The notes beneath the pieces were generated by a model that did no database searches, was not told where the DNA came from, and saw nothing but the letters and a program-made list of their open reading frames with translations. Below, piece by piece: positions 123-34,237 of a stretch of DNA of 45,122 nt. Position numbers and translations under genes: made by a program. This DNA comes from a virus, in the UHGV virus genome UHGV-0415709; one strand, 5' to 3'. Position 1 is the first letter of the stretch. Each line of letters starts with the position of its first letter.

Positions 123-386
123 TTATTTATTCATCTGCTTATACATCTGGTTAACGCCTGTAGCCGCCAGACCAGACATAGCGCCTACCGCTACAGCCGT
201 GATATAGTCACTTGCCGGGAAATCTGGTATAGTTCCCATACCAAGCGCGCCGAGAACACCACCCACTACAGCCATAATAACCGGAATCCATTCGTCCGGT
301 ATCTTCTTTGCCGCCTTACATCCAAGACCAACCACATAGCTCAGAGCCACAATAGCTACACATGTTCCCAATGTTGTGATGTCCAT
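123..386 (-). CDS. small membrane protein, 87 aa, 2-3 predicted TM helices (holin-like topology; function unproven)
   Basis: Hydrophobic Ala/Gly/Val-rich segments (LGTCVAIVALSYVVGLG; IPVIMAVVGGVLGALGMG; AVAVGAMSGLAATG); abuts upstream ORF (386). Confidence 0.35.
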   Translation of the reverse strand: MDITTLGTCVAIVALSYVVGLGCKAAKKIPDEWIPVIMAVVGGVLGALGMGTIPDFPASDYITAVAVGAMSGLAATGVNQMYKQMNK

Positions 387-2152: not shown

Positions 2153-2773
2153 TTATTCTCCTTTTTCAAATAGGCTTAAGTTCTGGGCAATAGCTGCCTG
2201 TCTTTCGCCAGGGTCTTTAATTTTCATGATTTCTGCTTTTGACATAGCTCCATTTCCACTATTTGCTTTAATCGGTGCGGTGAACCTCGCCATGTTCTGC
2301 TGTACCTGCTGCTGTGCATCATCAACAAAAGCCGAAGCATCTTTTTCTTTCATTTGAGACAAAAGGTCATTCAGCCCCAGAATTTTACCATCTTTCAGCT
2401 TTAAACCGGCCTCTTTTACTTCTGCCATAATTGCCCGCTTTGCTGCCTCACTGGAAAATTTAATCCCTTCAAATTCTGTCTTAAGCGCATCCGCAAAATC
2501 ACGTTCATAAAGCTGTGCCTGTGCATTCTTTTCTGCTTCTGTAGCTTTCTGTTTCCAGTCAGATATTTCCCTTTGCATCGTCTCCAGGTCAACCCCTTCA
2601 AAGCCTTTCAGCGTTGTTTCTGCTGCTTCTGCTTTTTCTTTCCAGGTATCCCGGTCTGCGCTCAGATTGTCGTTTTCTTTCTGCAACTTTTTGAGGTCTT
2701 TCCCATTTTCAGCCATGACAAAAGATATCTGTTCCTCTGTCAATCCCTGTGCTTTTAATTCTTCGGTTTTCAT
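2153..2773 (-). CDS. head scaffolding protein
   Basis: 206 aa highly charged alpha-helical/coiled-coil protein (EELKAQGLTEEQ..., KEKAEAAETTLKG...) immediately upstream of capsid gene. Confidence 0.7.
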   Translation of the reverse strand: MKTEELKAQGLTEEQISFVMAENGKDLKKLQKENDNLSADRDTWKEKAEAAETTLKGFEGVDLETMQREISDWKQKATEAEKNAQAQLYERDFADALKTEFEGIKFSSEAAKRAIMAEVKEAGLKLKDGKILGLNDLLSQMKEKDASAFVDDAQQQVQQNMARFTAPIKANSGNGAMSKAEIMKIKDPGERQAAIAQNLSLFEKGE

Positions 2774-2961
2774 TGATGATTCTCCTTTTCCGTTATTAGG
2801 TTATTTGTAGGTGTGTAACCGTCCACCAACGGTTGCCATTTTGTAGGACTTGACTTGTCCAAAAACGCACATGCCGGAAATTGCATCCGCTTTTCAACCT
2901 CCAGGCTGTTCACGCTATGCGCTAGAACCTGTTTCTTTTAAGGACATGTGCTATAGGAGGG

Positions 2962-3030
2962 AGGTCAATATAAAGAAAGAGCCAAACAAACTCTTGCATC
3001 TGTTTGGCTCTGCGTCTGGCGTCTGGCTCT
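2962..3030 (-). terminator. rho-independent terminator (minus strand) with conserved AGAGCC...GGCTCT / GCGTCT-GCGTCT motif
   Basis: 11-bp stem agagccaaaca(2978-2988)/tgtttggctct(3001-3011) with 12-nt loop; on minus strand followed by UCUUUCUUUAUAUU; downstream of ORF 3035..3220; same flank motif recurs at 43731-43771. Confidence 0.5.
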
Positions 3031-3034
3031 AAAG

Positions 3035-3220
3035 TTATGTTGCAGGTGATAAACCACTTTTATCTAAATCACTTGCTTTACCTTTTGCAATATTCATTAT
3101 GGATGTATTCTTGCATACAGGGCAAAATACGGGAAGGTTTTTCGCAACCGTATCTGGTCGTATTTTAGTCCGAGTTTTATTGTTACATATAGGGCAGTAC
3201 ACCCAACCGTCTTTTACCAT
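3035..3220 (-). CDS. zinc-ribbon mini-protein (CPIC...CPVC)
   Basis: 61 aa, two CxxC pairs; followed by terminator hairpin. Confidence 0.4.
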   Translation of the reverse strand: MVKDGWVYCPICNNKTRTKIRPDTVAKNLPVFCPVCKNTSIMNIAKGKASDLDKSGLSPAT

Positions 3221-3301
3221 GTTTTCACCCTTTCTGCTTATTCCTACTCCTATTTTACCTTATTCAAAAAAAATAATCGTCCCCACATTTTAAATATACT
3301 A

Positions 3302-3330
3302 TTGACTTTACGCCCTTTTGGGCGTATAAT
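3302..3330 (+). promoter_or_regulatory. sigma-A type promoter (TTGACT-17 nt-TATAAT) with embedded palindromic operator ACGCCCTTTTGGGCGT
   Basis: -35 ttgact 3302-3307, -10 tataat 3325-3330, 17-nt spacer; perfect palindrome 3310-3325 inside spacer; followed by RBS aaggaaaggtgg and ATG 3363. Confidence 0.6.
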
Positions 3331-3362
3331 ATAATCAGAGATAAGGAAAGGTGGTTAAAACA

Positions 3363-3692
3363 ATGACAGTAGCCGAGTTAAAAGAAATGATAGATACCAA
3401 TGATTGGGATATTAAATATAGTAGGTTTGGAATCCGCATTCAGGAACAGCCCTTTAAACTCGGCGCTATGGACCACAATTCAAAGGTGTGGCTTGACGAA
3501 GAGGAAACAGATGAAGAGCTGAACGGTGTATGCGCCATTGATTTAAACGCTCCAGAAGCCGCCGAATCTCTTAAGGGTAACGGATATTTTGGTTCCTACA
3601 TTGCTCTGATTGCAGGCTATAACTATGAGTACGGTTTTGATGCGGGGGAAGTTATTTTAAAAGATGCGGAAGTGCTGTATATCATAAAATAA
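3363..3692 (+). CDS. hypothetical protein (110 aa), first gene of plus-strand unit
   Basis: ORF track starts at GTG 3351; ATG 3363 (MTVAELKEMID...) has better-spaced RBS; acidic protein. Confidence 0.45.
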   Translation: MTVAELKEMIDTNDWDIKYSRFGIRIQEQPFKLGAMDHNSKVWLDEEETDEELNGVCAIDLNAPEAAESLKGNGYFGSYIALIAGYNYEYGFDAGEVILKDAEVLYIIK

Positions 3693-3982
3693 TGGAGGAA
3701 ATCATGAGAAGATACCCAGATTGTATTAGGACAGATGGACTTTGTGGGGCCTGCTCCGCATCCAGTTACGGCAGGGATTGCCATAACAATAATATCAACA
3801 AACTATTGTATCAACGTTCTTTGGCCGGAATGACCCAGCAGCAAGTAGCTAACGCCGCAGGAATGAATATCCGTCAGATACAGAAATTTGAATCTGGAGA
3901 AAGGGACCTTGGCAACATGACCCTGCGTAATGCCTTGTCATTGGCAAAAGCCCTTGACTGTGAGGTGGATGATTTAATATAG
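3692..3982 (+). CDS. XRE-family HTH regulator with Cys-rich N-terminus
   Basis: C-terminal HTH (QQVANAAGMNIRQIQKFESGERDLGNMTLRNALSLAKAL); N-terminal CxxxxxxCGAC...C cluster; overlaps previous stop (ATGA). Confidence 0.55.
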   Translation: MEEIMRRYPDCIRTDGLCGACSASSYGRDCHNNNINKLLYQRSLAGMTQQQVANAAGMNIRQIQKFESGERDLGNMTLRNALSLAKALDCEVDDLI

Positions 3983-3990
3983 GAGATAGT

Positions 3991-4473
3991 ATGGCACCAA
4001 AAAAAGATATATCGGGACAAACATATGGATATCTTAAGGCAATTAGGTGTACCGGAGATAAGAAGAACGGAAGCTATTTGTGGGAATTTGAATGCATCCT
4101 ATGCGGGAAGCATATTATAAGGCGTATTGGTCTGGTCACTGGTGGAGAAATTATTTCATGCGGTTGCTATAAAGCCAGGAATCTTAAAAACAGGCCATTG
4201 CCTGATAAGGTCGGTCAAGTTTTGGGAACAAACATATCCCGCATTACCTCTAAAAAGCCCCAGTCAAATACATCGTCTGGGCATAGAGGAGTATCTTTGC
4301 ATCGCCAGAAAGGTAAATCAGATACTTGGATTGCTTACATATACTTTCAAGGAAAACGCTTTTATCTTGGGAGCTTTGCAGACAAACAAGAGGCTATTAA
4401 AGCGCGTGAAACTGCCGAAAATCAGATATTTGGAGATTTTTTAAAATGGTACAATGAGCGAAAAAGCAATTAG
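3991..4473 (+). CDS. AP2-domain DNA-binding protein with N-terminal zinc cluster
   Basis: SGHRGVSLHRQKGK...WIAYIYFQGKRFYLGSFADKQEAIKARETAE matches AP2/ERF-type domain seen in phage HNH-associated proteins; N-terminal C..C.C..CGC cysteines. Confidence 0.55.
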   Translation: MAPKKDISGQTYGYLKAIRCTGDKKNGSYLWEFECILCGKHIIRRIGLVTGGEIISCGCYKARNLKNRPLPDKVGQVLGTNISRITSKKPQSNTSSGHRGVSLHRQKGKSDTWIAYIYFQGKRFYLGSFADKQEAIKARETAENQIFGDFLKWYNERKSN

Positions 4474-4529
4474 TGATTTCGTTTATAATACAATTAAAAG
4501 GCGGCAGGACTTTTCCCACCGCCAATTTA

Positions 4530-5069
4530 TTACATCATATTACGAAGCTTTTCAATATACCTTTTCATGGTTTCTCTTTCTTCCCGGCAGTCGGCATCTT
4601 TGGACATTTCGCCTAATTCTTCTGTCAGTTCGTCCATATGCTCTTCCAGGGCTGCAAGCATACGGCGCTTGCAATCTTCATCTTTTCCACCACTTCTGTA
4701 GCTCTGCTTCTGATTCATGTAGTCATCATAGGCCGGTCCAGTGGCGCGACTGTAGTGTCCTCTGACATAATGTTTCCCGCGTGTGCCGCGATAAGAACTG
4801 TCACTATCATAGTCCTGCGACATTCCATCAGCACGGCTATAACGTCCCATGCTGTCGCGCTTGCGACGCGCTTCGCTGTATTCTCCGCCGTCCATTTCGT
4901 CCATTACCTGATTGTAGTACTCTTCTTTGCACTTCCAGTACTCCACATTCTCCATGTCTTTCCACATGTCTATCAGTTTGTATGCGGTTTCAAGGTTGCT
5001 AGTGTTCAGGCCCTTTTCCGCAATCTTATCCAGCTCTTCGTGGATATTCTGCATCATCTTATAACTCAT
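4530..5069 (-). CDS. hypothetical highly charged protein (179 aa; Y/R/S/D-rich centre)
   Basis: ORF with low-complexity charged core (SYRGTRGKHYVRGHYSRATG...); part of accessory island. Confidence 0.4.
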   Translation of the reverse strand: MSYKMMQNIHEELDKIAEKGLNTSNLETAYKLIDMWKDMENVEYWKCKEEYYNQVMDEMDGGEYSEARRKRDSMGRYSRADGMSQDYDSDSSYRGTRGKHYVRGHYSRATGPAYDDYMNQKQSYRSGGKDEDCKRRMLAALEEHMDELTEELGEMSKDADCREERETMKRYIEKLRNMM

Positions 5070-5081
5070 AGCCTTACCCCC

Positions 5082-5513
5082 TTAACCTATTCTGCTAACA
5101 ACAAGGTTAGCGTCTGATACTGTCGCCGCTGTGGCTCCAACGTTTTTTACCGATAAGGTAGCGCAACATGGTTTGCACACCCTTACTTCTACAGTTGCTG
5201 CTCCATTGATTGTTGCGCCAGCGGCAACTGTGTTCTGGATTCTTGCACCGGGAATTCCTTCGCCGTCCTGCTGCACTTCAAAAATAACGTCACCTGCTGC
5301 GGCTGCGGAAAAGTTTCCGTTAAAGCCTACACGGTACAGGCCAGGAAGTAAAACCACTCTCCCAGAAAGTGGCTCGTGCCTTATATTTGGGCAATTACAG
5401 GAATATACCCGGTTTGCTGCAAACAGTACACTTCCATTGACTTCAACAGTCTGTGTGCCAGCAGTTACAAAATCTGCCATAATAAAATCCTCCTTATATG
5501 CACAGAAGGGCAA
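5082..5513 (-). CDS. protein with BclA-C-terminal-like (C1q/TNF-like jelly-roll) pattern
   Basis: Alternating hydrophobic beta-strand pattern (GLYRVGFNGNFSAAAAGDVIFEVQQDG...ATINGAATVEVRV...TLSVKNVG...LVVSRIG) resembles exosporium BclA C-terminal domains; probable start MADFVTAG internal to track ORF. Confidence 0.3.
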   Translation of the reverse strand: MPFCAYKEDFIMADFVTAGTQTVEVNGSVLFAANRVYSCNCPNIRHEPLSGRVVLLPGLYRVGFNGNFSAAAAGDVIFEVQQDGEGIPGARIQNTVAAGATINGAATVEVRVCKPCCATLSVKNVGATAATVSDANLVVSRIG

Positions 5514-5546
5514 GCCTGTGCCTACCCCTCCATGTGTGTAATACTA

Positions 5547-5783
5547 CTATTCAGTAGACATGTCCTTTTCGGACAAGATACGCAATATACGGTTGTTTTG
5601 GTCGATAATCTTCTCCATGTATTCTTTATTTTGCTGTTGCAACGCCTCTAATATATCATTATTAGAAACGTCACCAACGAGTAAAAGCAAATCTATCATT
5701 TGCAATGCAGTTGCATACAAAGCAAGATTATCATAAAACTGCTCGTTTCGATTTAGCATCCGCATCCAGTATTGCATCCACAA
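5547..5783 (-). CDS. hypothetical protein (78 aa)
   Basis: ORF only; overlaps next gene by ~30 nt. Confidence 0.3.
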   Translation of the reverse strand: MWMQYWMRMLNRNEQFYDNLALYATALQMIDLLLLVGDVSNNDILEALQQQNKEYMEKIIDQNNRILRILSEKDMSTE

Positions 5784-6463
5784 CCACAGTTAGAGGCATA
5801 TGGATATGGTGCCGGAACCGTATAAGCCGGTACAGGCTGCGGCTGACGAAGCTGTGCAACGATGGTGTTACCAACTGCATCAATAAAGCCGTTCTGGGCA
5901 GTCTGGCTTGCCTGGAACCTAAGAGTCTGATTTTCTGCCTGGAGACTGGAAATCTTGTCCTGGGTTAAGAAGTCAAGGATAGCCCTGGTGTTGCTGTTGT
6001 TGTTATCCAGTAAATCCCTTGTGGCGTTCTGGATTGTATTTCTGGTATCACATGACTGTGTTGCCAGATTGTAGTTTACGCCGTCAATTGCGCGCTGTGT
6101 CTGGCAGCAGCAATCCTGGAGCTGATAGCCCATCTGGCATAAGCTGCGGTCAACACCGTTGAATCCGCTGGTGATAGTGTTGTTCAGCGCGTATGTGCTG
6201 TCACAGATACCCTGCTGGATACCCCTAATTCCGTTTTCTATACCGTTCAAAGCAAAGCCCTCATTGATATCTGCTCTGGTAGCAAGACCCTGGAGTCCCG
6301 CGCCATTTGCACCGTTTCCGCCGAAGCCATTGCCCCAGCCTCCCCCGGCGAACAGGAAGAGAACGATAATCCAAATCCAATCTCCCCACATACCGTCACC
6401 ATTTCTGTTATTTCCGTTTCCTGTAGCGGCTGCAATGTCCGCTAAAGAGTAACCACTTTCCAT
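5753..6463 (-). CDS. membrane-anchored Gly-rich / Cys-cluster protein
   Basis: One N-terminal TM (WIWIIVLFLFAGGGW), glycine-rich GNG repeats, CCC triplet and C-terminal CGCGCNTGCGC. Confidence 0.45.
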   Translation of the reverse strand: MESGYSLADIAAATGNGNNRNGDGMWGDWIWIIVLFLFAGGGWGNGFGGNGANGAGLQGLATRADINEGFALNGIENGIRGIQQGICDSTYALNNTITSGFNGVDRSLCQMGYQLQDCCCQTQRAIDGVNYNLATQSCDTRNTIQNATRDLLDNNNSNTRAILDFLTQDKISSLQAENQTLRFQASQTAQNGFIDAVGNTIVAQLRQPQPVPAYTVPAPYPYASNCGCGCNTGCGC

Positions 6464-6516
6464 AAATATTTACTCCTTTAAATTTATTTACAAAATCATG
6501 CGCATTGATTTATGTA

Positions 6517-6765
6517 CTATTTTTTCATGCCTCCAAGCATCTGCTGAAACTGCTGGGCCATCTGCTGGGCTTGGTCTAACTGCTGCTGGGTAATCTGCCC
6601 GGACTGTAGCATCTTCTGCACTTCTTCCTGGGGATTCCCCTTGAAGTTGTTCTTAAATTCCATAAACTTCTGAATCATCTGCATTGGGTTGTTTCCCCCA
6701 CCCATTCCAGGCATCATGCCGCCCATTGGTGAGCCGCCGCCCAACATGCTAAATAATGGATTCAT
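6517..6765 (-). CDS. Met/Gly/Gln-rich low-complexity protein (82 aa)
   Basis: MLGGGSPMGGMMPGMGGGNNPMQMIQ...QQLDQAQQMAQQFQQMLGG. Confidence 0.4.
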   Translation of the reverse strand: MNPLFSMLGGGSPMGGMMPGMGGGNNPMQMIQKFMEFKNNFKGNPQEEVQKMLQSGQITQQQLDQAQQMAQQFQQMLGGMKK

Positions 6766-6768
6766 ATA

Positions 6769-7239
6769 TTATTTCCCCTTTCCGCTTGGCGCTGTGCTGG
6801 ATTCTAAAAGGCCATATAATTCATCATATTTTGCCTTTAAATCCTGATACTCGTTTCTTGTAACATATTTTTCATCCAGATTTTCAGCCGGTGCAGATTC
6901 CTTTTTCTGACCATTTACAATCTCTTTATATTCAAAAGTGCGGAGTGTTGGCATCCCTGCCGCATCGGTTGTCTTAATATAAAAATACTCATTTTCGCTG
7001 TCCATCAGCAATATAGATGTGCTGGGCGCTACTAAATACGACTTTGCCCCGGCCTCACCCTGCACCCATAATATTCCCTGATTGGTCTGCGGGACCTGTG
7101 GTACCTGCGTCTGTTGAGGCATCTGGTATGGTGCCTGTAACTGCTGCAATCGGTCCATAGGTGGTTGCATCTGCGGTTGATATGGGTATGCGTTTGGATA
7201 TGTATTCAGATAGTTTGGATTGATAAATGGTTGCGGCAT
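6769..7239 (-). CDS. protein with Pro/Gln/Tyr-rich N-terminal tail and folded C-terminal domain (156 aa)
   Basis: MPQPFINPNYLNTYPNAYPYQPQMQPP...QMPQQTQVPQVPQTNQ then a globular region. Confidence 0.45.
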   Translation of the reverse strand: MPQPFINPNYLNTYPNAYPYQPQMQPPMDRLQQLQAPYQMPQQTQVPQVPQTNQGILWVQGEAGAKSYLVAPSTSILLMDSENEYFYIKTTDAAGMPTLRTFEYKEIVNGQKKESAPAENLDEKYVTRNEYQDLKAKYDELYGLLESSTAPSGKGK

Positions 7240-7346
7240 TATATCCCCTCCGTTCTTTTATAATCCAATTATCCCATAAAAAATAAGCCTCTGACAGTTC
7301 GTCAAAGACTTATAAAAGTATCACGAAAGTATTCTAATATCCAAAA

Positions 7347-7532
7347 TCATCCAAACAATTCGGTTAAGCATTTTATACACATATCTTTTAATGCTTGCTG
7401 TGAAATAGCAACTTGGTCATTGTCTGATAATTTTATTTCAAATCCATTCCATTTTACAGACACCCAATTCCCCTGCGTGGGTGTTCTTCCACAATTTATA
7501 ATTAACTCACTTTTATCTGCAAACTGTTTCAA
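7347..7532 (-). CDS. hypothetical protein (61 aa)
   Basis: ORF only. Confidence 0.3.
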   Translation of the reverse strand: MKQFADKSELIINCGRTPTQGNWVSVKWNGFEIKLSDNDQVAISQQALKDMCIKCLTELFG

Positions 7533-7548
7533 ATTGTTTTCTCCCTTA

Positions 7549-7749
7549 TTAACACACCCTTATGATTTTGTTGTTTACTTTTCTGCTTAATCTCTTGACT
7601 GTGGATACACTTACGTTCATCAGTTCAGCGCAATATTCTAAAGGATAATTTTTAGCCCGGTACTCAAACAGCGCCCGCTCTTCATCTGTAAAGTTGCAAT
7701 ATGTACGAAAATAATTTAGTTCTGGCACTGTAAAGTCATATACTTTCAA
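7549..7749 (-). CDS. sigma-70 region-4-like HTH mini-regulator (66 aa)
   Basis: FTDEERALFEYRAKNYPLEYCAELMNVSVSTVKRLSRKVNNKI fits sigma region 4 / ArpU- or SpoIIID-like HTH pattern. Confidence 0.5.
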   Translation of the reverse strand: MKVYDFTVPELNYFRTYCNFTDEERALFEYRAKNYPLEYCAELMNVSVSTVKRLSRKVNNKIIRVC

Positions 7750-7760
7750 AGCAACGCTCC

Positions 7761-8054
7761 TTAAATACCTTCTGACAAATGCTTTATCATAGCTTCTTTG
7801 GTTTTTTTTAAACCCTCTATGTTGTTACCAGTTATACGATTATCAATTAATGCTATCATTCCTTGGCATAAAAGAGATTGCATATCTCTTATTTCTTGGA
7901 TAGATTTATAATCCTTTTCCACATTTATTTCTAATTTATCCACTCGGTTTTTTAGCTTAAATGCTGGATGCAACAATTTGTATATTACGGCTCCTGCTCC
8001 TCCAAGAGTAATAAGCCAACCGCATACAACCATAATAGAGTTTAATGTTTTCAT
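7761..8054 (-). CDS. membrane-anchored coiled-coil protein (97 aa)
   Basis: N-terminal TM (IMVVCGWLITLGGAGAVIY) followed by charged helical region. Confidence 0.4.
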   Translation of the reverse strand: MKTLNSIMVVCGWLITLGGAGAVIYKLLHPAFKLKNRVDKLEINVEKDYKSIQEIRDMQSLLCQGMIALIDNRITGNNIEGLKKTKEAMIKHLSEGI

Positions 8055-8057
8055 AAG

Positions 8058-8438
8058 TTATCGCCTTTCCCAGTAGTATATTGGTATCTCCTGCCCGCTG
8101 TCCCATGTATCCCAGTAATAACCATCCTGCACACACACCACATGCCCTGTAATTGCTAATACGTATGTTCCCATAGGATTATCCTGACAAAAGTTCTCGA
8201 CCGTGTATACATCTTGTCCGTGGTCATCCACTATGTACCGCTTAAACCCATTTTGACGTAGGTATGCACCCCACACATGATTGGCTGATGGCATATCAGA
8301 TAGAGCACACGCACATACAGTCACTCCGGCAAATACCGTTTCCCAGTCGCTATCTAGGGCTTTGGTTATAGCCCGGATAGGGCAGTCCCCTACGCGGGCA
8401 TTTTTAGGATTTGGATTATATGGTTTCCATCTACTCAT
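8058..8438 (-). CDS. hypothetical Cys/His-containing protein (126 aa)
   Basis: GDCPIRAITKAL...W...H pattern weakly reminiscent of papain-like folds; unverified. Confidence 0.35.
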   Translation of the reverse strand: MSRWKPYNPNPKNARVGDCPIRAITKALDSDWETVFAGVTVCACALSDMPSANHVWGAYLRQNGFKRYIVDDHGQDVYTVENFCQDNPMGTYVLAITGHVVCVQDGYYWDTWDSGQEIPIYYWERR

Positions 8439-8601
8439 TTCTATTCTCCATTTTTAAAATATCAAATATTTCTTTACAGGTAGAAATATTCAAAGGTATT
8501 CCCTTTTCTCTATAACCACTCCGCATATAGTAATTTATTACTTCTTTCGGAATTTCCCATGTTTCATCCTTGGGAACGTCATTAAAATTAATTTCGTTCA
8601 T

Positions 8602-9819
8602 TTAATTCCCTTTCACATTCTGATACCGCCGCGCTGCTCCCCTAGCCTTTTCCGCCTGCTCCCGGTTCCATCTGGCAATCTGTAACCGTTCCTGCTGGGT
8701 GCGTAAGTCGTTCGTTTTACAAAATTCGTTGTATGCCTTATTCTGCCGCTGTAACAGATACGACTTGCGGTCAAGGTCAAGCTGCATTTCAAATTTAGTT
8801 GATTCGTCCTTGCATTTATCCACGGCCTCCTGCATCCCCATGACCTCGCGTTTTGTCTTTCTGATGCGCCGTTCAAGCGTTCGCTGCCGCTTCTCCAGCT
8901 GCTCAACCTTGTAATTGTCTGCGGTTTGGATGTCTTTGTATGGATTGTTTACCCCATCACCGCTTCCGAAGGAGTGACGGCAGTTCCATCCACATAACCC
9001 TTCACCTGTTCCGTATCCAGTCTGGGAAAATGGAGGAAAGCCCTTATCCTTTCCGGTCCTGCTGTAAAACTGCCCTTGCCACCATAAATGATTGCCCGGA
9101 TTCTGTCCCCCGTTCCCGGTTCTGGCCCCGATGTGCGCTGACACCAGTATGATATCCCAGTCCATTTCTTCCATACGCTTAATAGAGATATCGCCTGTAG
9201 CCTGGGCTACTCCAGTGCGTACTGCGCGCGCCGTGGCAGTTTCTATGGTGTCTTTATGGCCCGAAGGATAGTGTACTATCACTCCGCCCGATATCACATT
9301 ATTAACTGCCTCTTTGACGGCCTGTGTGTACGATACAGCCCCAGAAGATACAAGGTGGTATGCATTATCACATTCGTTTATAAAAAGCCTTTGTGCGGCT
9401 TCTGCTGTGGTCCTAGTATAGTTTTCCCACTCTCCCATTGTTGCATCCATGTTTCGTTCCATCAGTCGGATAAGCTGCGGAGATTGAGTAAGAGGAATTG
9501 GAGATAAACCAGCAGCTTCATATATTTTATGGTCATATTCCAGGGCCTTGACTCCCGCTTCTTCCATTGCGGCCTTGATTTCTTTTTCCTGTCGCTTAGT
9601 GATTTTGGATAACTCCGCCGTTATGTCCTCCAGCAGATATCCTGCATCCTGCAATATCTGTATTCGCCATCGGTCAGAGGAGGTGAGTAGGTAATCATCG
9701 CCGCGGCCTATGCGTATCATCATGCGGTCTATTATCTGACGGATAATGTAGGTATGAAGCTGGGAGGCTATTTCTTCGCTTCCTTCTGCGATTCTTGCAA
9801 GGTAATCAGGGCTTAACAT
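8602..9819 (-). CDS. head morphogenesis / minor capsid protein (Mu F-like, SPP1 gp7 family)
   Basis: 405 aa downstream of portal; conserved segment GWNCRHSF typical of MuF-like proteins; basic coiled-coil C-terminus. Confidence 0.7.
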   Translation of the reverse strand: MLSPDYLARIAEGSEEIASQLHTYIIRQIIDRMMIRIGRGDDYLLTSSDRWRIQILQDAGYLLEDITAELSKITKRQEKEIKAAMEEAGVKALEYDHKIYEAAGLSPIPLTQSPQLIRLMERNMDATMGEWENYTRTTAEAAQRLFINECDNAYHLVSSGAVSYTQAVKEAVNNVISGGVIVHYPSGHKDTIETATARAVRTGVAQATGDISIKRMEEMDWDIILVSAHIGARTGNGGQNPGNHLWWQGQFYSRTGKDKGFPPFSQTGYGTGEGLCGWNCRHSFGSGDGVNNPYKDIQTADNYKVEQLEKRQRTLERRIRKTKREVMGMQEAVDKCKDESTKFEMQLDLDRKSYLLQRQNKAYNEFCKTNDLRTQQERLQIARWNREQAEKARGAARRYQNVKGN

Positions 9820-9925: not shown

Positions 9926-11359
9926 TTATTCCTCCTCAAACATCCTAGGTCCATCCTTCGGCTGTGCTTCCTTTACCATAGCTTTTGCATCTTCTTCGGA
10001 TAATCCTTCAAACTTCCGAAAATACATCCAGGCCGGCACCTTTCCCTGCACAACATACTGCCACCATCTTGCCCGGTCCTCTTCACGGTTATATGTAATG
10101 TCCCCAAAATCATATGTTATTTCGTAGTTGCCGGCGGGTGCCAGTCCGTACAGGTCAGCATATACATTAAGCGCATATATTGCCCCGTCAAGACAACTTT
10201 CCAGTTTGTCGCGCACATCCTTGATTAGCTGTATGGTTCTCCTGTCGTCAGCCTCTACCTGTGTGGCTGTGACCATTCCTGTTTTTTCATCAAGCACAAA
10301 ATACCCATTGGAATATCCACACTTAAATCCCACAAATGAGAGTAGGTTGTTTATTCCGGTAATTCTGATATCAGTATTCAACGATGGAACAATCTCCTGA
10401 TAGAAAGACTCTGTTCCATTTCCAAATACATTTTTAACATAATGAGGAAGCTTTTCATTGCTCATGCCAGCATAACGGCCTTTAATTTTTGTACCGCTTC
10501 CAAACATCAGCTGGTCGTCTGCCAATATAATCTTCTCACTGTCAAATATTTCACCCACGTTCCGGCTATATGCCACATCCAGGTCCTTTAATTCCTCTAT
10601 GGCCTCGGCATACATCGGTAATCCCAAAGGTGATGAAATATCCAAATTATTAGCCTGTGGAGTGCGGAGTATGCCAAACATGGGACTATCTATTTTCTCG
10701 TTGTTTGCTTTAAGTATAGGTGGAGTCTCTGGAAGTAAGTCGGACCACTTAGTCCTATTTAATGCTATCGGGTCCCCCACACTTTTTGCAGAGTGAGACA
10801 CATAGGCTCTATTGGATATGTAATATGGGTAATAGGTGTTTTCTCCATCCTTGACCTCGACAAACCTATGATACTCAAATCGGGTATAATACTTGTCGTT
10901 CTCGCTATAACTATCCTTAAATACGATTCCGTATATACCTTCATTGTCGCAGTCTGTAATGATAAAATCCATTGGAGTGAATATGTCCAGTCCCTTACCA
11001 TTTGGCTTAAGGATGATTGTGCCGTAGGCCATACCATATTCTACCCAGTGACGAATCTGGAAATATATCTTATCAACCTGCTCCTGGAGCCATTCCGCCC
11101 GCGCGCTCCCATCAATCTGTATTCCGATTGCCAGGGTAGCAAGCCGGGCCGTCTCTGAACATATAGCCTTTGCAAAATTGATTGTCTTAACGTTATCGTC
11201 AGCACTTACCCAATAGGGAGTACCCCGGTAGATATTGGCGCACTCTGTAATCTTGCTTTCCATCTCCGGGGATACCACTGATTCAACGTTAAAATCTTCC
11301 TCTGCCTGTCGCTTGAATATCATTCCTATCACCTTTTTAGCCCATGTTATTAGTCCCAT
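9926..11359 (-). CDS. portal protein
   Basis: 477 aa between terminase large subunit and MuF-like gene; acidic C-terminus; size and order typical of SPP1-type portal. Confidence 0.75.
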   Translation of the reverse strand: MGLITWAKKVIGMIFKRQAEEDFNVESVVSPEMESKITECANIYRGTPYWVSADDNVKTINFAKAICSETARLATLAIGIQIDGSARAEWLQEQVDKIYFQIRHWVEYGMAYGTIILKPNGKGLDIFTPMDFIITDCDNEGIYGIVFKDSYSENDKYYTRFEYHRFVEVKDGENTYYPYYISNRAYVSHSAKSVGDPIALNRTKWSDLLPETPPILKANNEKIDSPMFGILRTPQANNLDISSPLGLPMYAEAIEELKDLDVAYSRNVGEIFDSEKIILADDQLMFGSGTKIKGRYAGMSNEKLPHYVKNVFGNGTESFYQEIVPSLNTDIRITGINNLLSFVGFKCGYSNGYFVLDEKTGMVTATQVEADDRRTIQLIKDVRDKLESCLDGAIYALNVYADLYGLAPAGNYEITYDFGDITYNREEDRARWWQYVVQGKVPAWMYFRKFEGLSEEDAKAMVKEAQPKDGPRMFEEE

Positions 11360-11368
11360 TTAGTCACC

Positions 11369-11578
11369 TTATGCCAAGAAATACCCATTTTCCTTTGCCG
11401 TATTCCATTCTGTTTCCCTAAATACCAATTCCGTTTTGTCTTTCTGTCCATAGCAATCATATTCCAGAAAAACTTTCAGTAGTTTTTCCTTAGATGGTTT
11501 TCCGAACTTTTTTTCATATTCCTCTGTTATATCTTCAATTTTATAGACAGACAAAATAAAATGTTCTAATACATTCAT
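11369..11578 (-). CDS. hypothetical protein (69 aa)
   Basis: ORF between terL and portal; ATGA overlap with terL stop. Confidence 0.4.
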   Translation of the reverse strand: MNVLEHFILSVYKIEDITEEYEKKFGKPSKEKLLKVFLEYDCYGQKDKTELVFRETEWNTAKENGYFLA

Positions 11579-12837
11579 TATGCGCTGTTCCCCCTTCTCA
11601 TTGATAATGGGCTTGTGGCATAGCGGAGTGCATCAATCCAGTGGTCGTTTCCATCCGGGTAATCCGATATCACCTCACCGTTGCTGTCAACCTCATGCTC
11701 ATATTCTATGATTTCTTTGTATGCCCGCGGTGTACGTGCCGGGTCTATAACGATTGTACGGCATTGCAACCATTCAAATGTATATTTTCTGCTCCCAGGT
11801 CCAGCAGACGCATCCCTGGCCGGAAGTCCCGCATCTCGAAAATCTATAACAAATTCATCATCATCCAATCCGCAGTATATCATATAGTCATCGTATCCAG
11901 CTTTTTTGATTTGTTTTGCCATTTCTTTTACTCGGATTTTGCATCCTCCCAATTCGTCTAATAAGATAATTTTTTCTTTGTTTGGCACATAAGCTGCACG
12001 AATAAATGCTTTAGGGTCAGGCCACCATCCCCAGTCCTGCCCTTGATATATGCTTTCGTATTTCTGTATTTCTTCATCCGTGATTGTTCTAATTTCCAGC
12101 ATATCAAATATATTTGTGCCAAGCCCAACCGGCAAACCTAAATACTCGTGGTTATATGCCCGCTCATTAGTGGCTTTAAGATGTTCAGCGCGTTCAATAA
12201 ACTTTTCTCCCAGCCATTCAATCGGCACAGAACGGTAATCGCTTTTATGCCTATACGCGCTATCGTCTGGAGTATTCACATACTGATTAGCCCAGTTGCT
12301 TTGACTGATAGGCGGGTTGAAGGATTTAAATACAACAAACTTGCTGCCACCACGCAATACTGACTGCTCAACAGTTCGTATTTCTTCCGGTCCTGCAAAT
12401 TCGTCCAGTTCCTCGAACCATAGATATTTAAAGTATCCTTTACTGGCTTTTATAGATTTTGTTTTCTTTGCCTTGTCAAGTCCACGGAATATTATTTTTT
12501 GTCCTGTCGGCTTATAAACAAATCGGTATGGACTTGTACGGGATTCCCATAAGTCTGTTACACCCAATGCATCTATGGCCCACTGTATCTGCTCAAAGAC
12601 TGATTCTCCAATGGTTACGGCATATTTACGGAATATAACAGCATTGGCCTCTGGGTCGTCCATCATACCTAGCACAATCTCCGCTGATATAAAAGAGGAC
12701 TTTGCGGAACCTCGCCCGCCGTACAGGTCGTAATATGTATGATTACCGTCCAGAATATCCCAGTGAACGTCATAGAAGGATGGGGCGATTACGTCAGTCA
12801 GATTTATTGTTGTCTGGTCTTGGTATGTTGTTGACAA
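11578..12837 (-). CDS. terL: terminase large subunit
   Basis: Walker A-like GGRGSAKS near N-terminus; C-terminal nuclease-like acidic motifs; follows terS. Confidence 0.8.
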   Translation of the reverse strand: MSTTYQDQTTINLTDVIAPSFYDVHWDILDGNHTYYDLYGGRGSAKSSFISAEIVLGMMDDPEANAVIFRKYAVTIGESVFEQIQWAIDALGVTDLWESRTSPYRFVYKPTGQKIIFRGLDKAKKTKSIKASKGYFKYLWFEELDEFAGPEEIRTVEQSVLRGGSKFVVFKSFNPPISQSNWANQYVNTPDDSAYRHKSDYRSVPIEWLGEKFIERAEHLKATNERAYNHEYLGLPVGLGTNIFDMLEIRTITDEEIQKYESIYQGQDWGWWPDPKAFIRAAYVPNKEKIILLDELGGCKIRVKEMAKQIKKAGYDDYMIYCGLDDDEFVIDFRDAGLPARDASAGPGSRKYTFEWLQCRTIVIDPARTPRAYKEIIEYEHEVDSNGEVISDYPDGNDHWIDALRYATSPLSMRRGNSA

Positions 12838-16095: not shown

Positions 16096-16127
16096 AATTA
16101 TATCCTCCTCATTCGTATTGATTTTCA

Positions 16128-16157
16128 CGTCTGAGTAAGGTATGATATACTCAGACG
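16128..16157. promoter_or_regulatory. perfect 10-bp inverted repeat CGTCTGAGTA-N10-TACTCAGACG upstream of recombinase start
   Basis: cgtctgagta 16128-16137, tactcagacg 16148-16157; no U-tract after it on minus strand, so operator or RNA structure rather than canonical terminator. Confidence 0.4.
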
Positions 16158-16263
16158 TATTTACGGGAGCGGTGGAATCATCTTGGCGAGTGACCACCGC
16201 TCAGTTTTTATTCTGTGCATATAATTTGTTCCTCAATTTGTTTTTTCTTAGGTTTAGAAAATG

Positions 16264-34108: not shown

Positions 34109-34237
34109 AATCATCCTCCAATTATGCTGTTTTTCTGCTGCTCTGTAATCCATCCAATTGACACAGCCCGGTTGAGTTCGGAAACCGTTAATGGCCCTTT
34201 ACCATTGTTATATAGCCTTTTTAATGTTGTATACATT

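What the first reader, a model, noticed from the sequence alone, without database searches (positions are those of the whole stretch)
2850..8600. 5.8 kb accessory island inside the head-assembly operon encoding low-complexity, Cys-rich, BclA/C1q-like proteins and its own mini-regulators
Between the MuF-like head morphogenesis gene (ends 8602) and the scaffold gene (starts 2773), where SPP1-type phages are normally contiguous, there are ~14 extra genes. These include a sigma-region-4-like 66-aa HTH; a TM-anchored coiled-coil protein; Met/Gly/Gln-rich and Pro/Gln/Tyr-rich proteins; a TM-anchored Gly-rich protein with CCC and CGCGCNTGCGC clusters; a protein whose beta-strand pattern resembles the BclA C-terminal (C1q/TNF-like) exosporium domain; and a highly charged Tyr/Arg/Ser-rich protein. 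A divergently oriented self-contained unit (strong sigma-A promoter, HTH-XRE, AP2-domain protein) is also present. Collectively the composition resembles spore coat or exosporium proteins of Firmicutes more than virion proteins. The island may be phage cargo acting on the host cell or spore surface, or a set of novel capsid decoration/fibre proteins under its own regulator.
Basis: partly seen in the sequence, partly recalled or inferred. Interest (0 to 1): 0.8.

Follow-up and report, generated by a model that had tools for sequence, protein, structure and literature searches.

The report
Portable accessory cassette in gut phages
The extra genes in this phage's head operon are mostly one conserved six- to seven-gene cassette with its own regulator, found in many gut Firmicutes phages at different genome positions; it is dispensable for head assembly, its job is unknown, and it is not tied to spores.

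Summary
Fifteen ORFs lie between the minor capsid gene (PF06152, 8602-9819) and the scaffold gene (PF06810, 2153-2773).

The island is a mosaic. Its core is a conserved syntenic cassette:
- a GerE/sigma-4-type HTH
- a C39-like cysteine peptidase (invariant Cys/His/Asp)
- a P/Q/Y-rich protein
- a G/M/Q-rich protein
- a Trp-flanked, hydrophobic-anchored Cys-rich protein
- a stand-alone BclA-C/TNF-fold protein
- an R/Y/S/D-rich protein

A hairpin followed by an extended -10 precedes the cassette, and a terminator follows it.

I found the cassette in 81 of 83 related loci. It lies in the head module in only 12 of 54 complete genome loci, and otherwise usually after the endolysin. Among phages with a related minor capsid gene, 14 have the scaffold gene 132-786 bp downstream, so the island is dispensable for head assembly.

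The spore link is not supported. The whole cassette sits in Butyrivibrio virus Ceridwen, a plaque-isolated phage of a host I know as non-sporulating, and no other member resembles coat proteins.

The + strand HTH/AP2 unit is a separate indel.

My best guess, at low confidence, is a self-regulated moron-like module that builds a peptidase-matured, membrane-tethered protein assembly in the infected cell.

The parts
8602..9819 (-). Left flank: minor capsid protein 2 (MuF-like). Backbone gene, not part of the cassette.
   Evidence: PF06152 E 1.4e-74; phrog_581 minor head protein E 3.9e-95.
8431..8601 (-). 56-aa ORF of unknown function, seen only in this window's lineage.
   Evidence: No family hit. 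The HMM search found it in 1 source only.
8058..8438 (-). Cassette gene 1: 126-aa papain-fold, C39-like cysteine peptidase (phrog_3754).
7761..8054 (-). 97-aa protein with an N-terminal hydrophobic segment followed by a predicted helical region. Lineage-specific companion, probably independent of the cassette.
   Evidence: KD19 1.98 at residues 6-24. It occurs alone at otherwise empty sites L127/L128. In Ceridwen a homologue lies upstream of the endolysin.
7549..7749 (-). Cassette regulator candidate: 66-aa stand-alone GerE/LuxR- or sigma-region-4-type HTH.
   Evidence: Sigma70_r4_2 E 9.6e-4, phrog_1190 E 2.8e-6. Family profile vs PDB: GerE 2e-7, NarL CTD, SigF/SigH region 4. Adjacent to the cassette in 48 sources.
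7347..7532 (-). 61-aa ORF; strain-specific small insertion.
   Evidence: Window 7333-7546 is absent from L004 and L005, whose flanks are contiguous there. No family hit.
7268..7334 (-). Regulatory region of the cassette. Direct repeats GAATACTTT (7334-7326) and GATACTTTT (7322-7314); hairpin 7313-7283; T-run; TATG-G-GATAAT extended -10 (7278-7268).
   Evidence: Sequence read. Hairpin dG -15.9, z -5.7. A T-run plus extended -10 lies 34-77 nt after the HTH gene in 15 of 41 loci (farther downstream in L067 and in the window, 17 in all), against 9 of 480 control windows. Hairpin + T-run + -10-like site: 57/73 vs 50/218 controls. The mosaic breakpoint with L004 is at 7332.
6769..7239 (-). Cassette gene 2: 156-aa protein with a P/Q/Y-rich N-terminus, a conserved ~55-aa core (WVxGExxAKxYxVxP...YxK..D..G.P) and a C-terminal helix (phrog_21718).
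   Evidence: phrog_21718 E 7.5e-48. Found in 75 sources. Alignment A6. No Pfam or PDB relative.
6517..6765 (-). Cassette gene 3: 82-aa G/M/Q-rich protein with a conserved N-terminus MxNPLFxxLGG (phrog_22984).
   Evidence: phrog_22984 E 3.2e-22. It occurs only where the peptidase gene is present: 27/0/12/15 in 54 complete loci, and 41 with both vs 12 with neither in viral loci.
5753..6463 (-). Cassette gene 4, the most widespread member: 236-aa protein. It has a short N-tail, a Trp-flanked hydrophobic segment, a Gly-rich linker, a conserved Cys-rich helical domain (DCCC, TRAILDFLTQDK), a PxPAY motif and a CGCGC tail (phrog_16490).
   Evidence: phrog_16490 E 1.2e-62. More than 8000 90%-identity clusters. 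1781 50%-identity clusters, all about 200-300 aa. Alignment. No Pfam, NCBIfam or PDB relative.
5547..5783 (-). 78-aa ORF overlapping the 3' end of the 236-aa gene; a doubtful gene.
   Evidence: Found only in the closest relatives L004/L005. Weak sub-threshold Pfam hit.
5082..5480 (-). Cassette gene 5: stand-alone BclA-C / TNF-C1q-fold protein of 132 aa from ATG 5480 (the ORF as listed starts at TTG 5513) (phrog_20016).
   Evidence: AF2 pLDDT 88. Foldseek PDB: F-BclA 9h38 E 1.4e-8, BclA 2r6q/1wck, BxpB 8d02, ExsFA 7r5i, and phage fibre knobs. 15 of 48 homologues hit PF18573, best E 1.5e-7. In BFVD the nearest structures are same-size gut-phage proteins, TM 0.84-0.91.
4530..5069 (-). Cassette gene 6: 179-aa protein with helical ends and an R/Y/S/D/G-rich low-complexity centre (RDSxGRYSR repeats) (phrog_28802).
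   Evidence: phrog_28802 E 1.8e-70. Found in 57 loci. Alignment.
4500..4523 (-). Terminator-like hairpin closing the cassette.
   Evidence: 10-bp stem with 7 GC pairs plus a T-run. dG -18.4, z -4.5. The mosaic block shared with L004 ends at 4529. A terminator follows the last cassette gene in 22/55 loci vs 22/400 controls.
3293..4496 (+). Separate 1.2-kb insertion: promoter-like site 3302-3330, 113-aa ORF 3351-3692, XRE HTH 3692-3982, and an AP2-domain protein 3991-4473 (the DNA-binding part of the HNH homing-endonuclease families; no nuclease domain detected).
   Evidence: Promoter-like site TTGACT-17-TATAAT. HTH_3 E 9.5e-8, AP2 E 1.4e-3, phrog_374/99 HNH endonuclease. Precisely absent in L005 and replaced by another AP2 ORF in L004.
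3035..3220 (-). Cys_rich_KTR zinc-ribbon protein; a backbone gene preceding the scaffold gene, followed by hairpin 3011-2978.
   Evidence: PF14205 E 5.8e-19. It is present between the minor capsid and scaffold genes in phages without the cassette (L113, L125, L126, L150, L151, L154). Hairpin dG -20.4.
2153..2773 (-). Right flank: head scaffolding protein; a backbone gene.
   Evidence: PF06810 E 1.5e-27; phrog_194.

Best explanation
Shown: the island is a mosaic. Its core is a portable, conserved accessory cassette, with some extra lineage-specific ORFs lying between its genes. In the window the cassette genes are the peptidase 8058-8438, the HTH 7549-7749, the regulatory region 7334-7268, and the five genes 7239-4530 closed by terminator 4523-4500. 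The cassette recurs with the same gene order in phages and prophages of gut and rumen Bacillota. It sits at different genome positions, and close relatives of this phage do without it.

Inferred: it works like a moron, that is, an insulated transcription unit.
1. A hairpin stops upstream transcription.
2. A sigma-A-type extended -10 placed directly behind it restarts transcription.
3. The small GerE/sigma-4-type HTH encoded just upstream probably binds the short direct repeats in front of the hairpin.

Inferred, with low confidence: the products assemble inside the infected or lysogenic cell at the membrane.
- The 236-aa protein is the hydrophobic anchor and Cys-rich scaffold.
- The C39-like cysteine peptidase trims a Gly-Gly-type N-terminal leader. 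The 82-aa G/M/Q-rich protein is the likeliest substrate or partner. The leader-like N-tail of the 236-aa protein is a second candidate.
- The P/Q/Y-rich and R/Y/S-rich low-complexity proteins form the matrix.
- The fast-evolving BclA-C/TNF-fold protein, probably a trimer, is the exposed or ligand-binding element.

The assembly would alter the cell envelope, for example by superinfection exclusion or receptor masking. It would not build the capsid or the spore.
For: Portability and conservation:
- The same gene order occurs in 81 of 83 related loci, in the cultured phage Ceridwen and in about 50 IMG/VR contigs.
- Only 12 of 54 complete genome loci have the cassette in the head module.
- Elsewhere the nearest upstream genes are mostly endolysins: Amidase_2 7, CHAP 3, GH25 2, M23 2 and others.
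- In Dulem virus 33 it lies between the amidase and integrase genes.

Dispensability: 14 phages with a related minor capsid gene have the scaffold gene 132-786 bp downstream.

Module boundaries:
- Window 7332-4529 is 96.3% identical to L004, while the flanks are 73-93% identical.
- Stable hairpins lie at both ends.
- Hairpin-plus-extended -10 signals are enriched after the HTH gene, and terminators are enriched after the last gene.

Peptidase: invariant Cys/His/Asp, pLDDT 96.5, and best structural neighbours that are enzymes cutting after Gly-Gly (C39 domains, Josephin, UFM1 proteases).

Partner links:
- The 82-aa gene never occurs without the peptidase gene.
- The S/TxxD[IV]AAxT[GN] N-tail of the 236-aa protein is associated with the peptidase gene: 35/38 vs 17/29.

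Anchor: a conserved Trp-flanked hydrophobic segment and conserved Cys clusters.

TNF-fold member: it is the most divergent protein of the set, 28-35% identical where the others are mostly 46-68% (o179 falls to 31% in L002).

No member has a recognisable signal peptide (read from the sequences).
Against: - No experiment or expression data exist. The promoter, terminators and regulator binding are consensus-level predictions.
- The hydrophobic core of the 236-aa protein is short (KD19 1.46), so it may not span the membrane.
- The co-occurrence statistics are not corrected for phylogeny.
- Gly-Gly motifs in the proposed substrates are frequent but not universal.
- The peptidase family also occurs alone in Bacillus, Geobacillus and Lak phages, so it may have an independent role.
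- PADLOC finds no defence family.
- Ceridwen's authors regard it as virulent (PMC7372960). That argues against a purely lysogenic-conversion role.
- Placement inside the late operon on the late strand is compatible with a virion role.
Confidence: 0.4

Rival explanations
1. Accessory virion decoration. The TNF/BclA-fold trimer and the low-complexity proteins coat or fringe the capsid or tail of the progeny phage, after trimming by the peptidase. They would form a dispensable nap that improves stability or adhesion in the gut.
For: In this lineage the cassette lies in the head module on the late strand. The fold also matches phage fibre and knob domains: 8ke9, 9k09, 9eul, and fibritin-like and collagen-tailed viral proteins in BFVD. 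Known decoration proteins are dispensable, and the cassette is absent from close relatives. An apparently virulent phage keeps the cassette (PMC7372960). None of the proteins has a signal peptide, which is what virion parts look like.
Against: 42 of 54 complete loci have the cassette outside the head module, mostly after the endolysin, where structural genes are not expected. It travels between unrelated phage backbones, and BFVD homologues carry automatic sipho-, myo- and podovirus labels, whereas decoration proteins must fit one capsid lattice. It contains a hydrophobic-anchored protein, its own HTH regulator and a hairpin-insulated promoter. It has no hit to any PHROG or Pfam decoration family.
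Confidence: 0.2
2. One reading: cargo that is deposited on, or remodels, the host spore coat or exosporium during sporulation of a lysogen.
For: The BclA-C fold is confirmed, with BxpB/ExsFA also among the best hits. The regulator family profile's best named hit is GerE, the coat-gene regulator. The proteins are Cys-, Tyr-, Gln- and Gly-rich and lack signal peptides, like coat proteins made in the mother cell. Many hosts are Clostridia.
Against: The whole cassette is in Ceridwen, which was plaque-isolated on Butyrivibrio fibrisolvens, and in contigs of Faecalibacterium, Subdoligranulum, Agathobacter and Christensenella. These are non-sporeformers by my own knowledge. The promoter-like element is a sigma-A-type extended -10, not a sigma-E/K type. 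There is no collagen-like stalk and no exosporium targeting motif. No other member hits a coat or exosporium family. GerE-like HTHs are ubiquitous LuxR-type domains.
Confidence: 0.05
3. A lysis or release accessory module: membrane and cytoplasmic factors that tune or complete host lysis, or act on envelope layers beyond peptidoglycan.
For: The usual position is immediately downstream of the endolysin (Ceridwen). The set includes a hydrophobic-anchored protein. A TM/coiled-coil companion (the 97-aa protein) has a Ceridwen homologue upstream of the endolysin.
Against: In this window the cassette lies about 25 kb from the endolysin (33368-34153) and apart from the holin-like gene (123-386). Close relatives lack it. 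None of the proteins resembles a holin, a spanin or a wall hydrolase. The post-endolysin slot is also the classical moron slot.
Confidence: 0.1
4. A peptide-maturation or counter-defence module. The C39/DUB-like peptidase (with AgrB-like peptidases in variant cassettes) either processes a small exported signal or toxin, or removes ubiquitin-like tags that host defence systems place on phage proteins. The other genes would be substrates or decoys.
For: The structural neighbours are double-glycine leader peptidases and deubiquitinase-type enzymes. AgrB-like genes lie directly upstream of four variant cassettes. The N-termini of the 82- and 236-aa proteins look leader-like. The peptidase also occurs alone in unrelated phages.
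Against: There is no ABC exporter, no receptor kinase and no AgrD-like peptide next to the cassette. The conserved partners are 80-280-aa proteins with large conserved domains, not short precursors. 15 of 54 complete loci lack the peptidase but keep the rest.
Confidence: 0.1

Closest known systems
BclA C-terminal domain and BxpB/ExsFA (Bacillus exosporium; TNF/C1q-like trimers, Pfam PF18573)
   Same: The predicted fold of the 132-aa protein is the same jelly-roll. Best PDB matches are F-BclA 9h38, BclA 2r6q/1wck/3twi, BxpB 8d02 and ExsFA 7r5i. A third of its family reaches Pfam BclA_C. Like BxpB/ExsFA it is a stand-alone domain without a collagen stalk.
   Different: Only 13-21% identical. The window protein itself has no Pfam hit. 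It has no collagen-like repeats and no exosporium targeting sequence. It is encoded by phages, including a phage of a non-sporulating host. Equally good fold matches exist to phage fibre knobs and eukaryotic TNF/C1q.
C39 double-glycine leader peptidase domains of PCAT/AMS transporters (ComA, PCAT1, LahT-type)
Phage morons (for example HK97 gp15, lambda bor/lom): extra transcription units inserted between essential late genes
   Same: Present or absent between otherwise syntenic head genes. It has its own promoter-like and terminator-like signals. Its mosaic boundaries coincide with those signals. Its alternative home is the post-lysis slot next to the integrase gene.
   Different: Six to seven conserved genes with a dedicated regulator, rather than one or two genes. 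It is also carried by a phage described as virulent. Expression from the prophage is untested.
GerE (B. subtilis, 74 aa) and other stand-alone LuxR-type / sigma-region-4 HTH proteins
   Same: The same size and four-helix HTH. GerE is the best named PDB hit of the family profile (E 2e-7).
   Different: No evidence of any link to sigma-K or to sporulation. The window protein is below Pfam's cut-offs. Its binding site is only inferred from the direct repeats.
Dispensable capsid decoration proteins (SPP1 gp12, lambda gpD, T4 Hoc/Soc)
   Same: Accessory, encoded near head genes in this lineage, and probably trimeric.
   Different: No sequence or family similarity. The cassette usually lies outside head modules. 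It includes a hydrophobic-anchored protein, a peptidase and a regulator.

Membership tests
BclA_C / TNF-C1q superfamily (the 132-aa protein) | Ten-strand jelly-roll fold of the TNF/C1q type | tested here: met
   AF2 pLDDT 88, all-beta. Foldseek PDB: F-BclA 9h38 E 1.4e-8, TM 0.75; BclA 2r6q TM 0.78; C1q and TNF family members.
BclA_C / TNF-C1q superfamily (the 132-aa protein) | Sequence match to Pfam PF18573 | tested here: inconclusive
   The window protein has no hit at E <= 0.1. 15 of 48 family members hit, best E 1.5e-7. Two close homologues carry a precomputed PF18573 assignment.
BclA-type exosporium glycoprotein | N-terminal exosporium targeting region and collagen-like GXX repeats | tested here: not met
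   The protein is 132 aa and the fold domain fills it. No GXX repeats appear in the sequence or in alignment A2.
BclA_C / TNF-C1q superfamily (the 132-aa protein) | Homotrimer | not testable with these tools
Peptidase C39 (double-glycine leader peptidase) | Papain-like fold closest to C39 domains | tested here: met
Peptidase C39 (double-glycine leader peptidase) | Catalytic Cys and His (plus Asp) and an oxyanion Gln/Asn, all conserved | tested here: met
   C19, H99, D110 and N8 are invariant in 38 homologues at 23-69% identity. Their geometry in the model was not inspected.
Peptidase C39 (double-glycine leader peptidase) | Sequence match to Pfam C39 families | tested here: not met
   No C39 hit for the window protein or for any of 38 homologues at E <= 1. 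No PDB sequence hit with the family profile.
Peptidase C39 (double-glycine leader peptidase) | Fused to or next to an ABC exporter, with a Gly-Gly leader substrate | tested here: not met
   There is no ABC transporter gene in the island or next to the cassettes. The leader-like N-termini are suggestive only.
Spore coat / exosporium protein set (CotG, CdeC, CotY-like) | Sequence similarity of the low-complexity and Cys-rich members to known coat families | tested here: not met
   No Pfam, NCBIfam or PDB sequence hit for the 156-, 82-, 236- or 179-aa proteins.
Spore coat / exosporium protein set | Restricted to spore-forming hosts | tested here: not met
   The complete cassette is in Butyrivibrio virus Ceridwen, host B. 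fibrisolvens DSM 3071. There are also loci in Faecalibacterium, Subdoligranulum, Agathobacter and Christensenella assemblies. Their non-sporulating status rests on my own knowledge, and MAG binning of phage contigs can err.
Phage moron | Present or absent between genes that are adjacent in related phages | tested here: met
   The gap from the minor capsid gene to the scaffold gene is 132-786 bp in 14 related contigs and 4.2-7.8 kb with the cassette in about 50.
Phage moron | Own promoter and terminator | tested here: inconclusive
   Consensus-level signals are enriched over controls. No transcript data.
Phage moron | Expressed from the repressed prophage | not testable with these tools
   Needs RNA-seq of a lysogen.
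Sigma-70 region 4 / LuxR-GerE HTH (the 66-aa protein) | Sequence match to the HTH families | tested here: inconclusive
   Window protein: Sigma70_r4_2 E 9.6e-4 at 19.2 bits, below the 25.7-bit cut-off. Family profile: GerE 2e-7, NarL 1.4e-6, SigF 6e-6.
Known anti-phage defence systems (PADLOC) | Match to any PADLOC model | tested here: not met
   No hits for 10 island proteins at E <= 0.01.
Head decoration / standard virion families | Match to a PHROG or Pfam structural family | tested here: not met
   All cassette PHROGs are of unknown function. No structural Pfam family matches.

The most novel reading that the evidence does not exclude
The cassette is a previously undescribed multi-protein system of Bacillota phages. 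It would be a self-regulated, horizontally mobile module that builds a peptidase-matured, membrane-tethered matrix of low-complexity and Cys-rich proteins, capped by BclA/TNF-like trimers. This would be a phage-made 'nap' on the inner or outer face of the infected cell's envelope (or on released particles), with a function not yet on the list of known phage accessory functions.
Probability: 0.3. Interest if true: 0.8.

Novelty: new variant of a known kind. Interest (0 to 1): 0.6.

Why it matters
The anchor protein family alone has more than 8000 90%-identity clusters and 1781 50%-identity clusters in public data. This is therefore one of the common gene sets of gut Firmicutes phages. Every member sits in PHROGs as 'unknown function', and I found no paper that treats them as a unit.

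Knowing what the cassette does would assign a function to thousands of hypothetical genes. It might also reveal how temperate gut phages change the envelope, phage susceptibility or particle properties of dominant commensals such as Lachnospiraceae and Oscillospiraceae.

The question can be tested now:
- a cultured phage-host pair carries the full cassette (Ceridwen on B. fibrisolvens DSM 3071);
- cultured bacterial strains carry related prophage regions (Enterocloster hominis CLA-SR-H021, and Anaerotruncus colihominis DSM 17241 with a reduced version);
- natural cassette-free relatives exist as controls.

The 'repeats, hairpin, extended -10' layout behind a 66-aa HTH gene is also a compact regulatory design that could be tested directly.

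Tried and rejected
- A nucleotide search of the whole region against 50,697 phage records found nothing usable.
- PDB sequence searches were uninformative for the 143-, 236- and 126-aa proteins singly and for the family profiles A1, A2 and A6.
- Pfam scans of every member of the peptidase and P/Q/Y-protein families gave only scattered chance hits.
- NCBIfam and PADLOC gave nothing for the cassette.
- The AFDB50 fold library was unavailable.
- Literature searches found no description of the cassette. The searches covered phage-encoded exosporium or coat proteins, BclA_C in phages, and prophage cargo in Lachnospiraceae and C. clostridioforme.
- I considered a strict rule that the 236-aa N-tail ends in T-G-G/N only when the peptidase is present. 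Genome loci contradict it: L034, L037, L041, L055 and L059 have the peptidase with T-R/D-N.
- I considered the 82-aa protein as an STI1/SGTA-like Met/Gln-rich chaperone. That resemblance is recalled from memory only, and Pfam gave no support.
- I considered the whole 5.8-kb island as a single unit. I rejected this because the 61-aa ORF, the + strand unit and the KTR gene vary independently.

Full report
**1. What is in the window.**

The window reads as a complete temperate siphophage genome. The late operon is on the - strand:
- large terminase 11578-12837
- portal 9926-11359
- minor capsid protein 2 at 8602-9819 (PF06152, E 1.4e-74)
- scaffold 2153-2773 (PF06810, E 1.5e-27)
- major capsid 1262-2149

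Elsewhere there are two tyrosine-recombinase genes, an M15/VanY endolysin at 33368-34153, a tail fibre and a tape-measure gene.

Every compositional statement in the finding can be verified from the translations.

Three small corrections apply:
- The BclA-like gene probably starts at ATG 5480 (132 aa), like its homologues.
- The hydrophobic core of the 236-aa protein is short (KD19 1.46), so membrane insertion is an inference.
- The 78-aa ORF is doubtful.

**2. The island is a mosaic around one conserved cassette.**

All the larger - strand ORFs belong to PHROG families of unknown function.

tblastn and then iterated HMM searches covered 83 related loci: 3 annotated phages and 80 species-level genomes fetched with the 236-aa protein. 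They show a fixed gene order. The order is (HTH) - 126-aa enzyme - (HTH) - 156 - 82 - 236 - 143 - 179. A variant order has the enzyme gene at the 3' end.

In the 54 loci with enough flanking DNA, the partner genes occur as follows:

| Gene | Loci |
|---|---|
| 156-aa | 53 |
| 179-aa | 40 |
| 126-aa | 39 |
| 143-aa | 37 |
| HTH | 34 |
| 82-aa | 27 |
| all six structural genes | 23 |

The other ORFs vary independently:
- Window 7333-7546 (the 61-aa ORF) is missing in L004 and L005.
- Window 3293-4496 (the + strand promoter, 113-aa ORF, XRE HTH and AP2 protein) is precisely missing in L005. In L004 a different AP2 ORF replaces it.
- The Cys_rich_KTR gene (PF14205) is a backbone gene. It stays next to the scaffold gene in phages that lack the cassette.
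- The 97-aa TM protein can occur alone (L127/L128).

**3. It is portable and dispensable.**

Only 12 of the 54 complete loci have the cassette next to head genes. Elsewhere the nearest large upstream genes are mostly endolysins, with some tail genes: Amidase_2, CHAP, GH25, M23, M15, PG_binding_1 and CW_7.

In Dulem virus 33 the cassette lies between the amidase and the integrase genes. In Bajarodcaudo virus 5 the 236-aa homologue lies downstream of a holin gene and a C39-like peptidase gene.

Among 80 IMG/VR contigs with a minor capsid protein 61-97% identical to this one:
- the scaffold gene follows within 132-786 bp in 14;
- it follows after 4.2-7.8 kb of cassette in about 50;
- two contigs carry partial deletions.

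Head assembly therefore does not need these genes.

**4. It looks like an insulated, self-regulated transcription unit.**

The signals in the window are:
- The HTH gene, then the inserted 61-aa ORF, are followed by two direct repeats (GAATACTTT 7334-7326 and GATACTTTT 7322-7314).
- Next comes a 13-bp hairpin (7313-7283, dG -15.9, z -5.7), then a T-run.
- Directly after that is TATG-G-GATAAT, a Gram-positive-type extended -10 (7278-7268), then a strong ribosome-binding site and the 156-aa gene.
- The unit ends at a GC-rich hairpin with a T-run (4523-4500, dG -18.4).

The 96.3%-identical block shared with L004 runs from 7332 to 4529, exactly from the repeats to the terminator. The flanks are 73-93% identical.

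The layout recurs in other loci:
- A T-run plus extended -10 lies within 34-77 nt of the HTH stop codon in 15 of 41 loci (farther downstream in L067 and in the window, which makes 17 of 41). In random control windows the count is 9 of 480.
- A hairpin, T-run and -10-like site precede the cassette in 57 of 73 loci, against 50 of 218 controls.
- A terminator follows the last cassette gene in 22 of 55 loci, against 22 of 400 controls.
- The authors of Ceridwen independently annotated a terminator at the same place.

The HTH family profile matches GerE (2e-7), the NarL C-terminal domain and sigma region 4. That the HTH binds the repeats is an inference.

**5. What the proteins are.**

*126-aa protein.*
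- N8, D18, C19, R22, H99 and D110 are invariant across 23-69% identity.
- The AlphaFold2 model has pLDDT 96.5.
- I file it as a papain-fold cysteine peptidase that works like a C39 or deubiquitinase-type enzyme.
- I do not file it as a member of Pfam C39. There is no sequence match, and no transporter gene is nearby.

*132-aa protein.*
- The model is confident (pLDDT 88).
- The best PDB matches are F-BclA, BclA, BxpB and ExsFA. Phage fibre knobs, TNF and C1q follow.
- 15 of 48 family members reach Pfam BclA_C.
- In BFVD the nearest structures are same-size gut-phage proteins (TM 0.84-0.91). Two of them are already auto-named 'BclA protein'.
It was derived from the sequence alone, so this is a real confirmation.
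- The protein lacks a collagen stalk and a targeting motif.
- It is the fastest-evolving cassette member.

*236-aa protein.*
- The family is very large. The word-index search saturated at 8000 candidates. An exhaustive search found 1781 50%-identity clusters, all about 200-300 aa and without fusions.
- It is strongly conserved. The conserved features are a Trp-flanked hydrophobic segment, a GFGG linker, GICDSTYALNN, DCCCxTQRAIDGVNYN, TRAILDFLTQDK, CPxPAY and a Cys-rich tail.

*156-, 82- and 179-aa proteins.* Each combines a conserved core with a low-complexity stretch: P/Q/Y, G/M/Q and RDSxGRYSR respectively.

None of these last four proteins has a relative in Pfam, NCBIfam, PADLOC or PDB sequences.

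**6. Links between the parts.**

The 82-aa gene is never found without the peptidase gene. The counts are 27 with both, 0 with the 82-aa gene alone, 12 with the peptidase alone and 15 with neither (p = 4e-6). In the viral lineage, 41 loci have both and 12 have neither.

Its conserved N-terminus MxNPLFxxLGG has hydrophobic residues at -4 and -7 before a Gly-Gly, like a short double-glycine leader (the comparison with such leaders is from my own knowledge).

The N-tail motif S/TxxD[IV]AAxT[GN] of the 236-aa protein is commoner where the peptidase is present: 35/38 against 17/29, p = 0.002.

These statistics are not corrected for shared ancestry. The motifs are not universal. I treat them as leads only.

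In four variant cassettes an AgrB-like membrane peptidase gene lies directly upstream.

**7. Why not spores.**

The complete cassette follows the endolysin of Butyrivibrio virus Ceridwen. There it consists of the HTH, terminator, peptidase, 156, 82, 236 and 143, then an inserted HNH/AP2-like ORF, then 179, with HMM E-values from 1e-11 to 3e-48.

Ceridwen was isolated by plaque on B. fibrisolvens DSM 3071, and its authors regard it as virulent (PMC7372960). B. fibrisolvens does not form spores, by my own knowledge.

Other loci come from Faecalibacterium, Subdoligranulum, Agathobacter and Christensenella assemblies, although binning errors are possible.

The promoter-like element is of the sigma-A type. 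Apart from the TNF fold and a generic GerE-like HTH, nothing matches coat or exosporium proteins.

**8. Most likely mechanism, and how sure I am.**

*Shown:* a portable, dispensable, conserved cassette with module-like boundaries; a C39-like peptidase; a BclA-C-fold protein.

*Inferred:* an insulated sigma-A-dependent unit controlled by the small HTH.

*Inferred with low confidence:*
- The products assemble in the cytoplasm at the membrane around the 236-aa anchor.
- The peptidase matures the 82-aa protein, and perhaps the 236-aa protein.
- The low-complexity proteins form a matrix.
- The variable TNF-fold trimer is the interacting surface.
- The outcome is a change of the infected or lysogenic cell's envelope, such as exclusion or receptor masking.

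I give this 0.4.

The main rival is a dispensable virion decoration (0.2). The late-strand head-module position here, the fibre-knob fold matches and retention by an apparently virulent phage favour it. Four things count against it. The usual post-endolysin position is not where structural genes lie. The cassette spreads across unrelated phage backbones. It has a hydrophobic anchor. It has a private regulator.

A lysis accessory role and a peptide-maturation or counter-defence role get about 0.1 each. The spore-surface reading gets about 0.05.

**9. Novelty and what is unexplained.**

The families are already catalogued, as PHROGs of unknown function and as UniProt 'uncharacterized' or 'BclA protein' entries. 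I found no description of them as a unit. As a genetic element it is a large, regulated variant of a moron. Its function may be new.

Open points:
- How the scaffold and capsid genes are transcribed across three stable hairpins (7313-7283, 4523-4500, 3011-2978).
- Why homing-endonuclease-like ORFs keep landing inside the cassette.
- What the AgrB-like genes do.

Noticed in passing
L049:8446-9018, L068:8442-9002, L073:8430-8999, L076:8403-8972: AgrB-like membrane peptidase genes (PF04647, E 3e-7 to 8e-5) lie directly upstream of variant cassettes, usually paired with another multi-TM ORF. Six of the 76 scanned upstream flank ORFs matched AgrB.
   Followed up: partly
L002:6073-6624 (between the 82- and 236-aa genes); L063 (between 236 and 143); L165:8382-9245 (Ceridwen, between 143 and 179); window 3991-4473; L004:11949-12980: HNH/AP2-type homing-endonuclease-like ORFs are inserted at different points of the cassette in different phages. 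The window's copy keeps only the DNA-binding parts; no HNH nuclease domain was detected.
   Followed up: partly
window 7283-7313, 4500-4523, 2978-3011 (- strand): Three stable terminator-like hairpins (dG -15.9, -18.4 and -20.4 kcal/mol) lie between the minor capsid gene and the scaffold and capsid genes. No convincing promoter was seen in 2774-2977. Late expression of the scaffold and capsid genes would therefore need read-through or antitermination.
   Followed up: no
window 123-386 (-) and 33368-34153 (-): A holin-like two-TM ORF sits just after the head-tail adaptor gene, as annotated in Dulem virus 35. The M15/VanY endolysin is about 33 kb away by window coordinates, so the lysis genes are split.
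   Followed up: no
window 15049-16197 (-) and 31991-33079 (+): Two Phage_integrase-family genes occur in one 45-kb phage genome (E 1.1e-30 and 7.7e-10). The second lies in the low-GC (27-37%) + strand block 29-33 kb, which looks like the lysogeny module.
   Followed up: no
window 17983-19026 (-): A PAPS-reductase-domain protein (PF01507, E 2.5e-21) is encoded among the early genes. It may be a DNA- or nucleotide-modification enzyme.
   Followed up: no
Phage records MW084976 (Bacillus phage Kirov), NC_023007 (Tsamsa), KJ159566 (Geobacillus GBK2; L166:4995-5384), MK250016 (Prevotella Lak-A1): The 126-aa peptidase family (29-42% identity) also occurs in large Bacillus siphophages, Geobacillus phage GBK2 and Lak megaphages. 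In GBK2, the only one of these I checked, none of the other cassette genes lies nearby. The enzyme therefore may have a role of its own.
   Followed up: partly
L088 and L099 (IMG/VR contigs): Natural partial deletions keep the peptidase, the 97-aa protein, the HTH and the 156-aa gene but have lost the 82- to 179-aa genes. They could serve as natural mutants.
   Followed up: no
window 3692-3982 (+): The XRE-type HTH of the inserted + strand unit has a 35-aa N-terminal extension with four Cys and a His (CxxxxxxCxxC...C.H). It may be a small metal-binding module.
   Followed up: no
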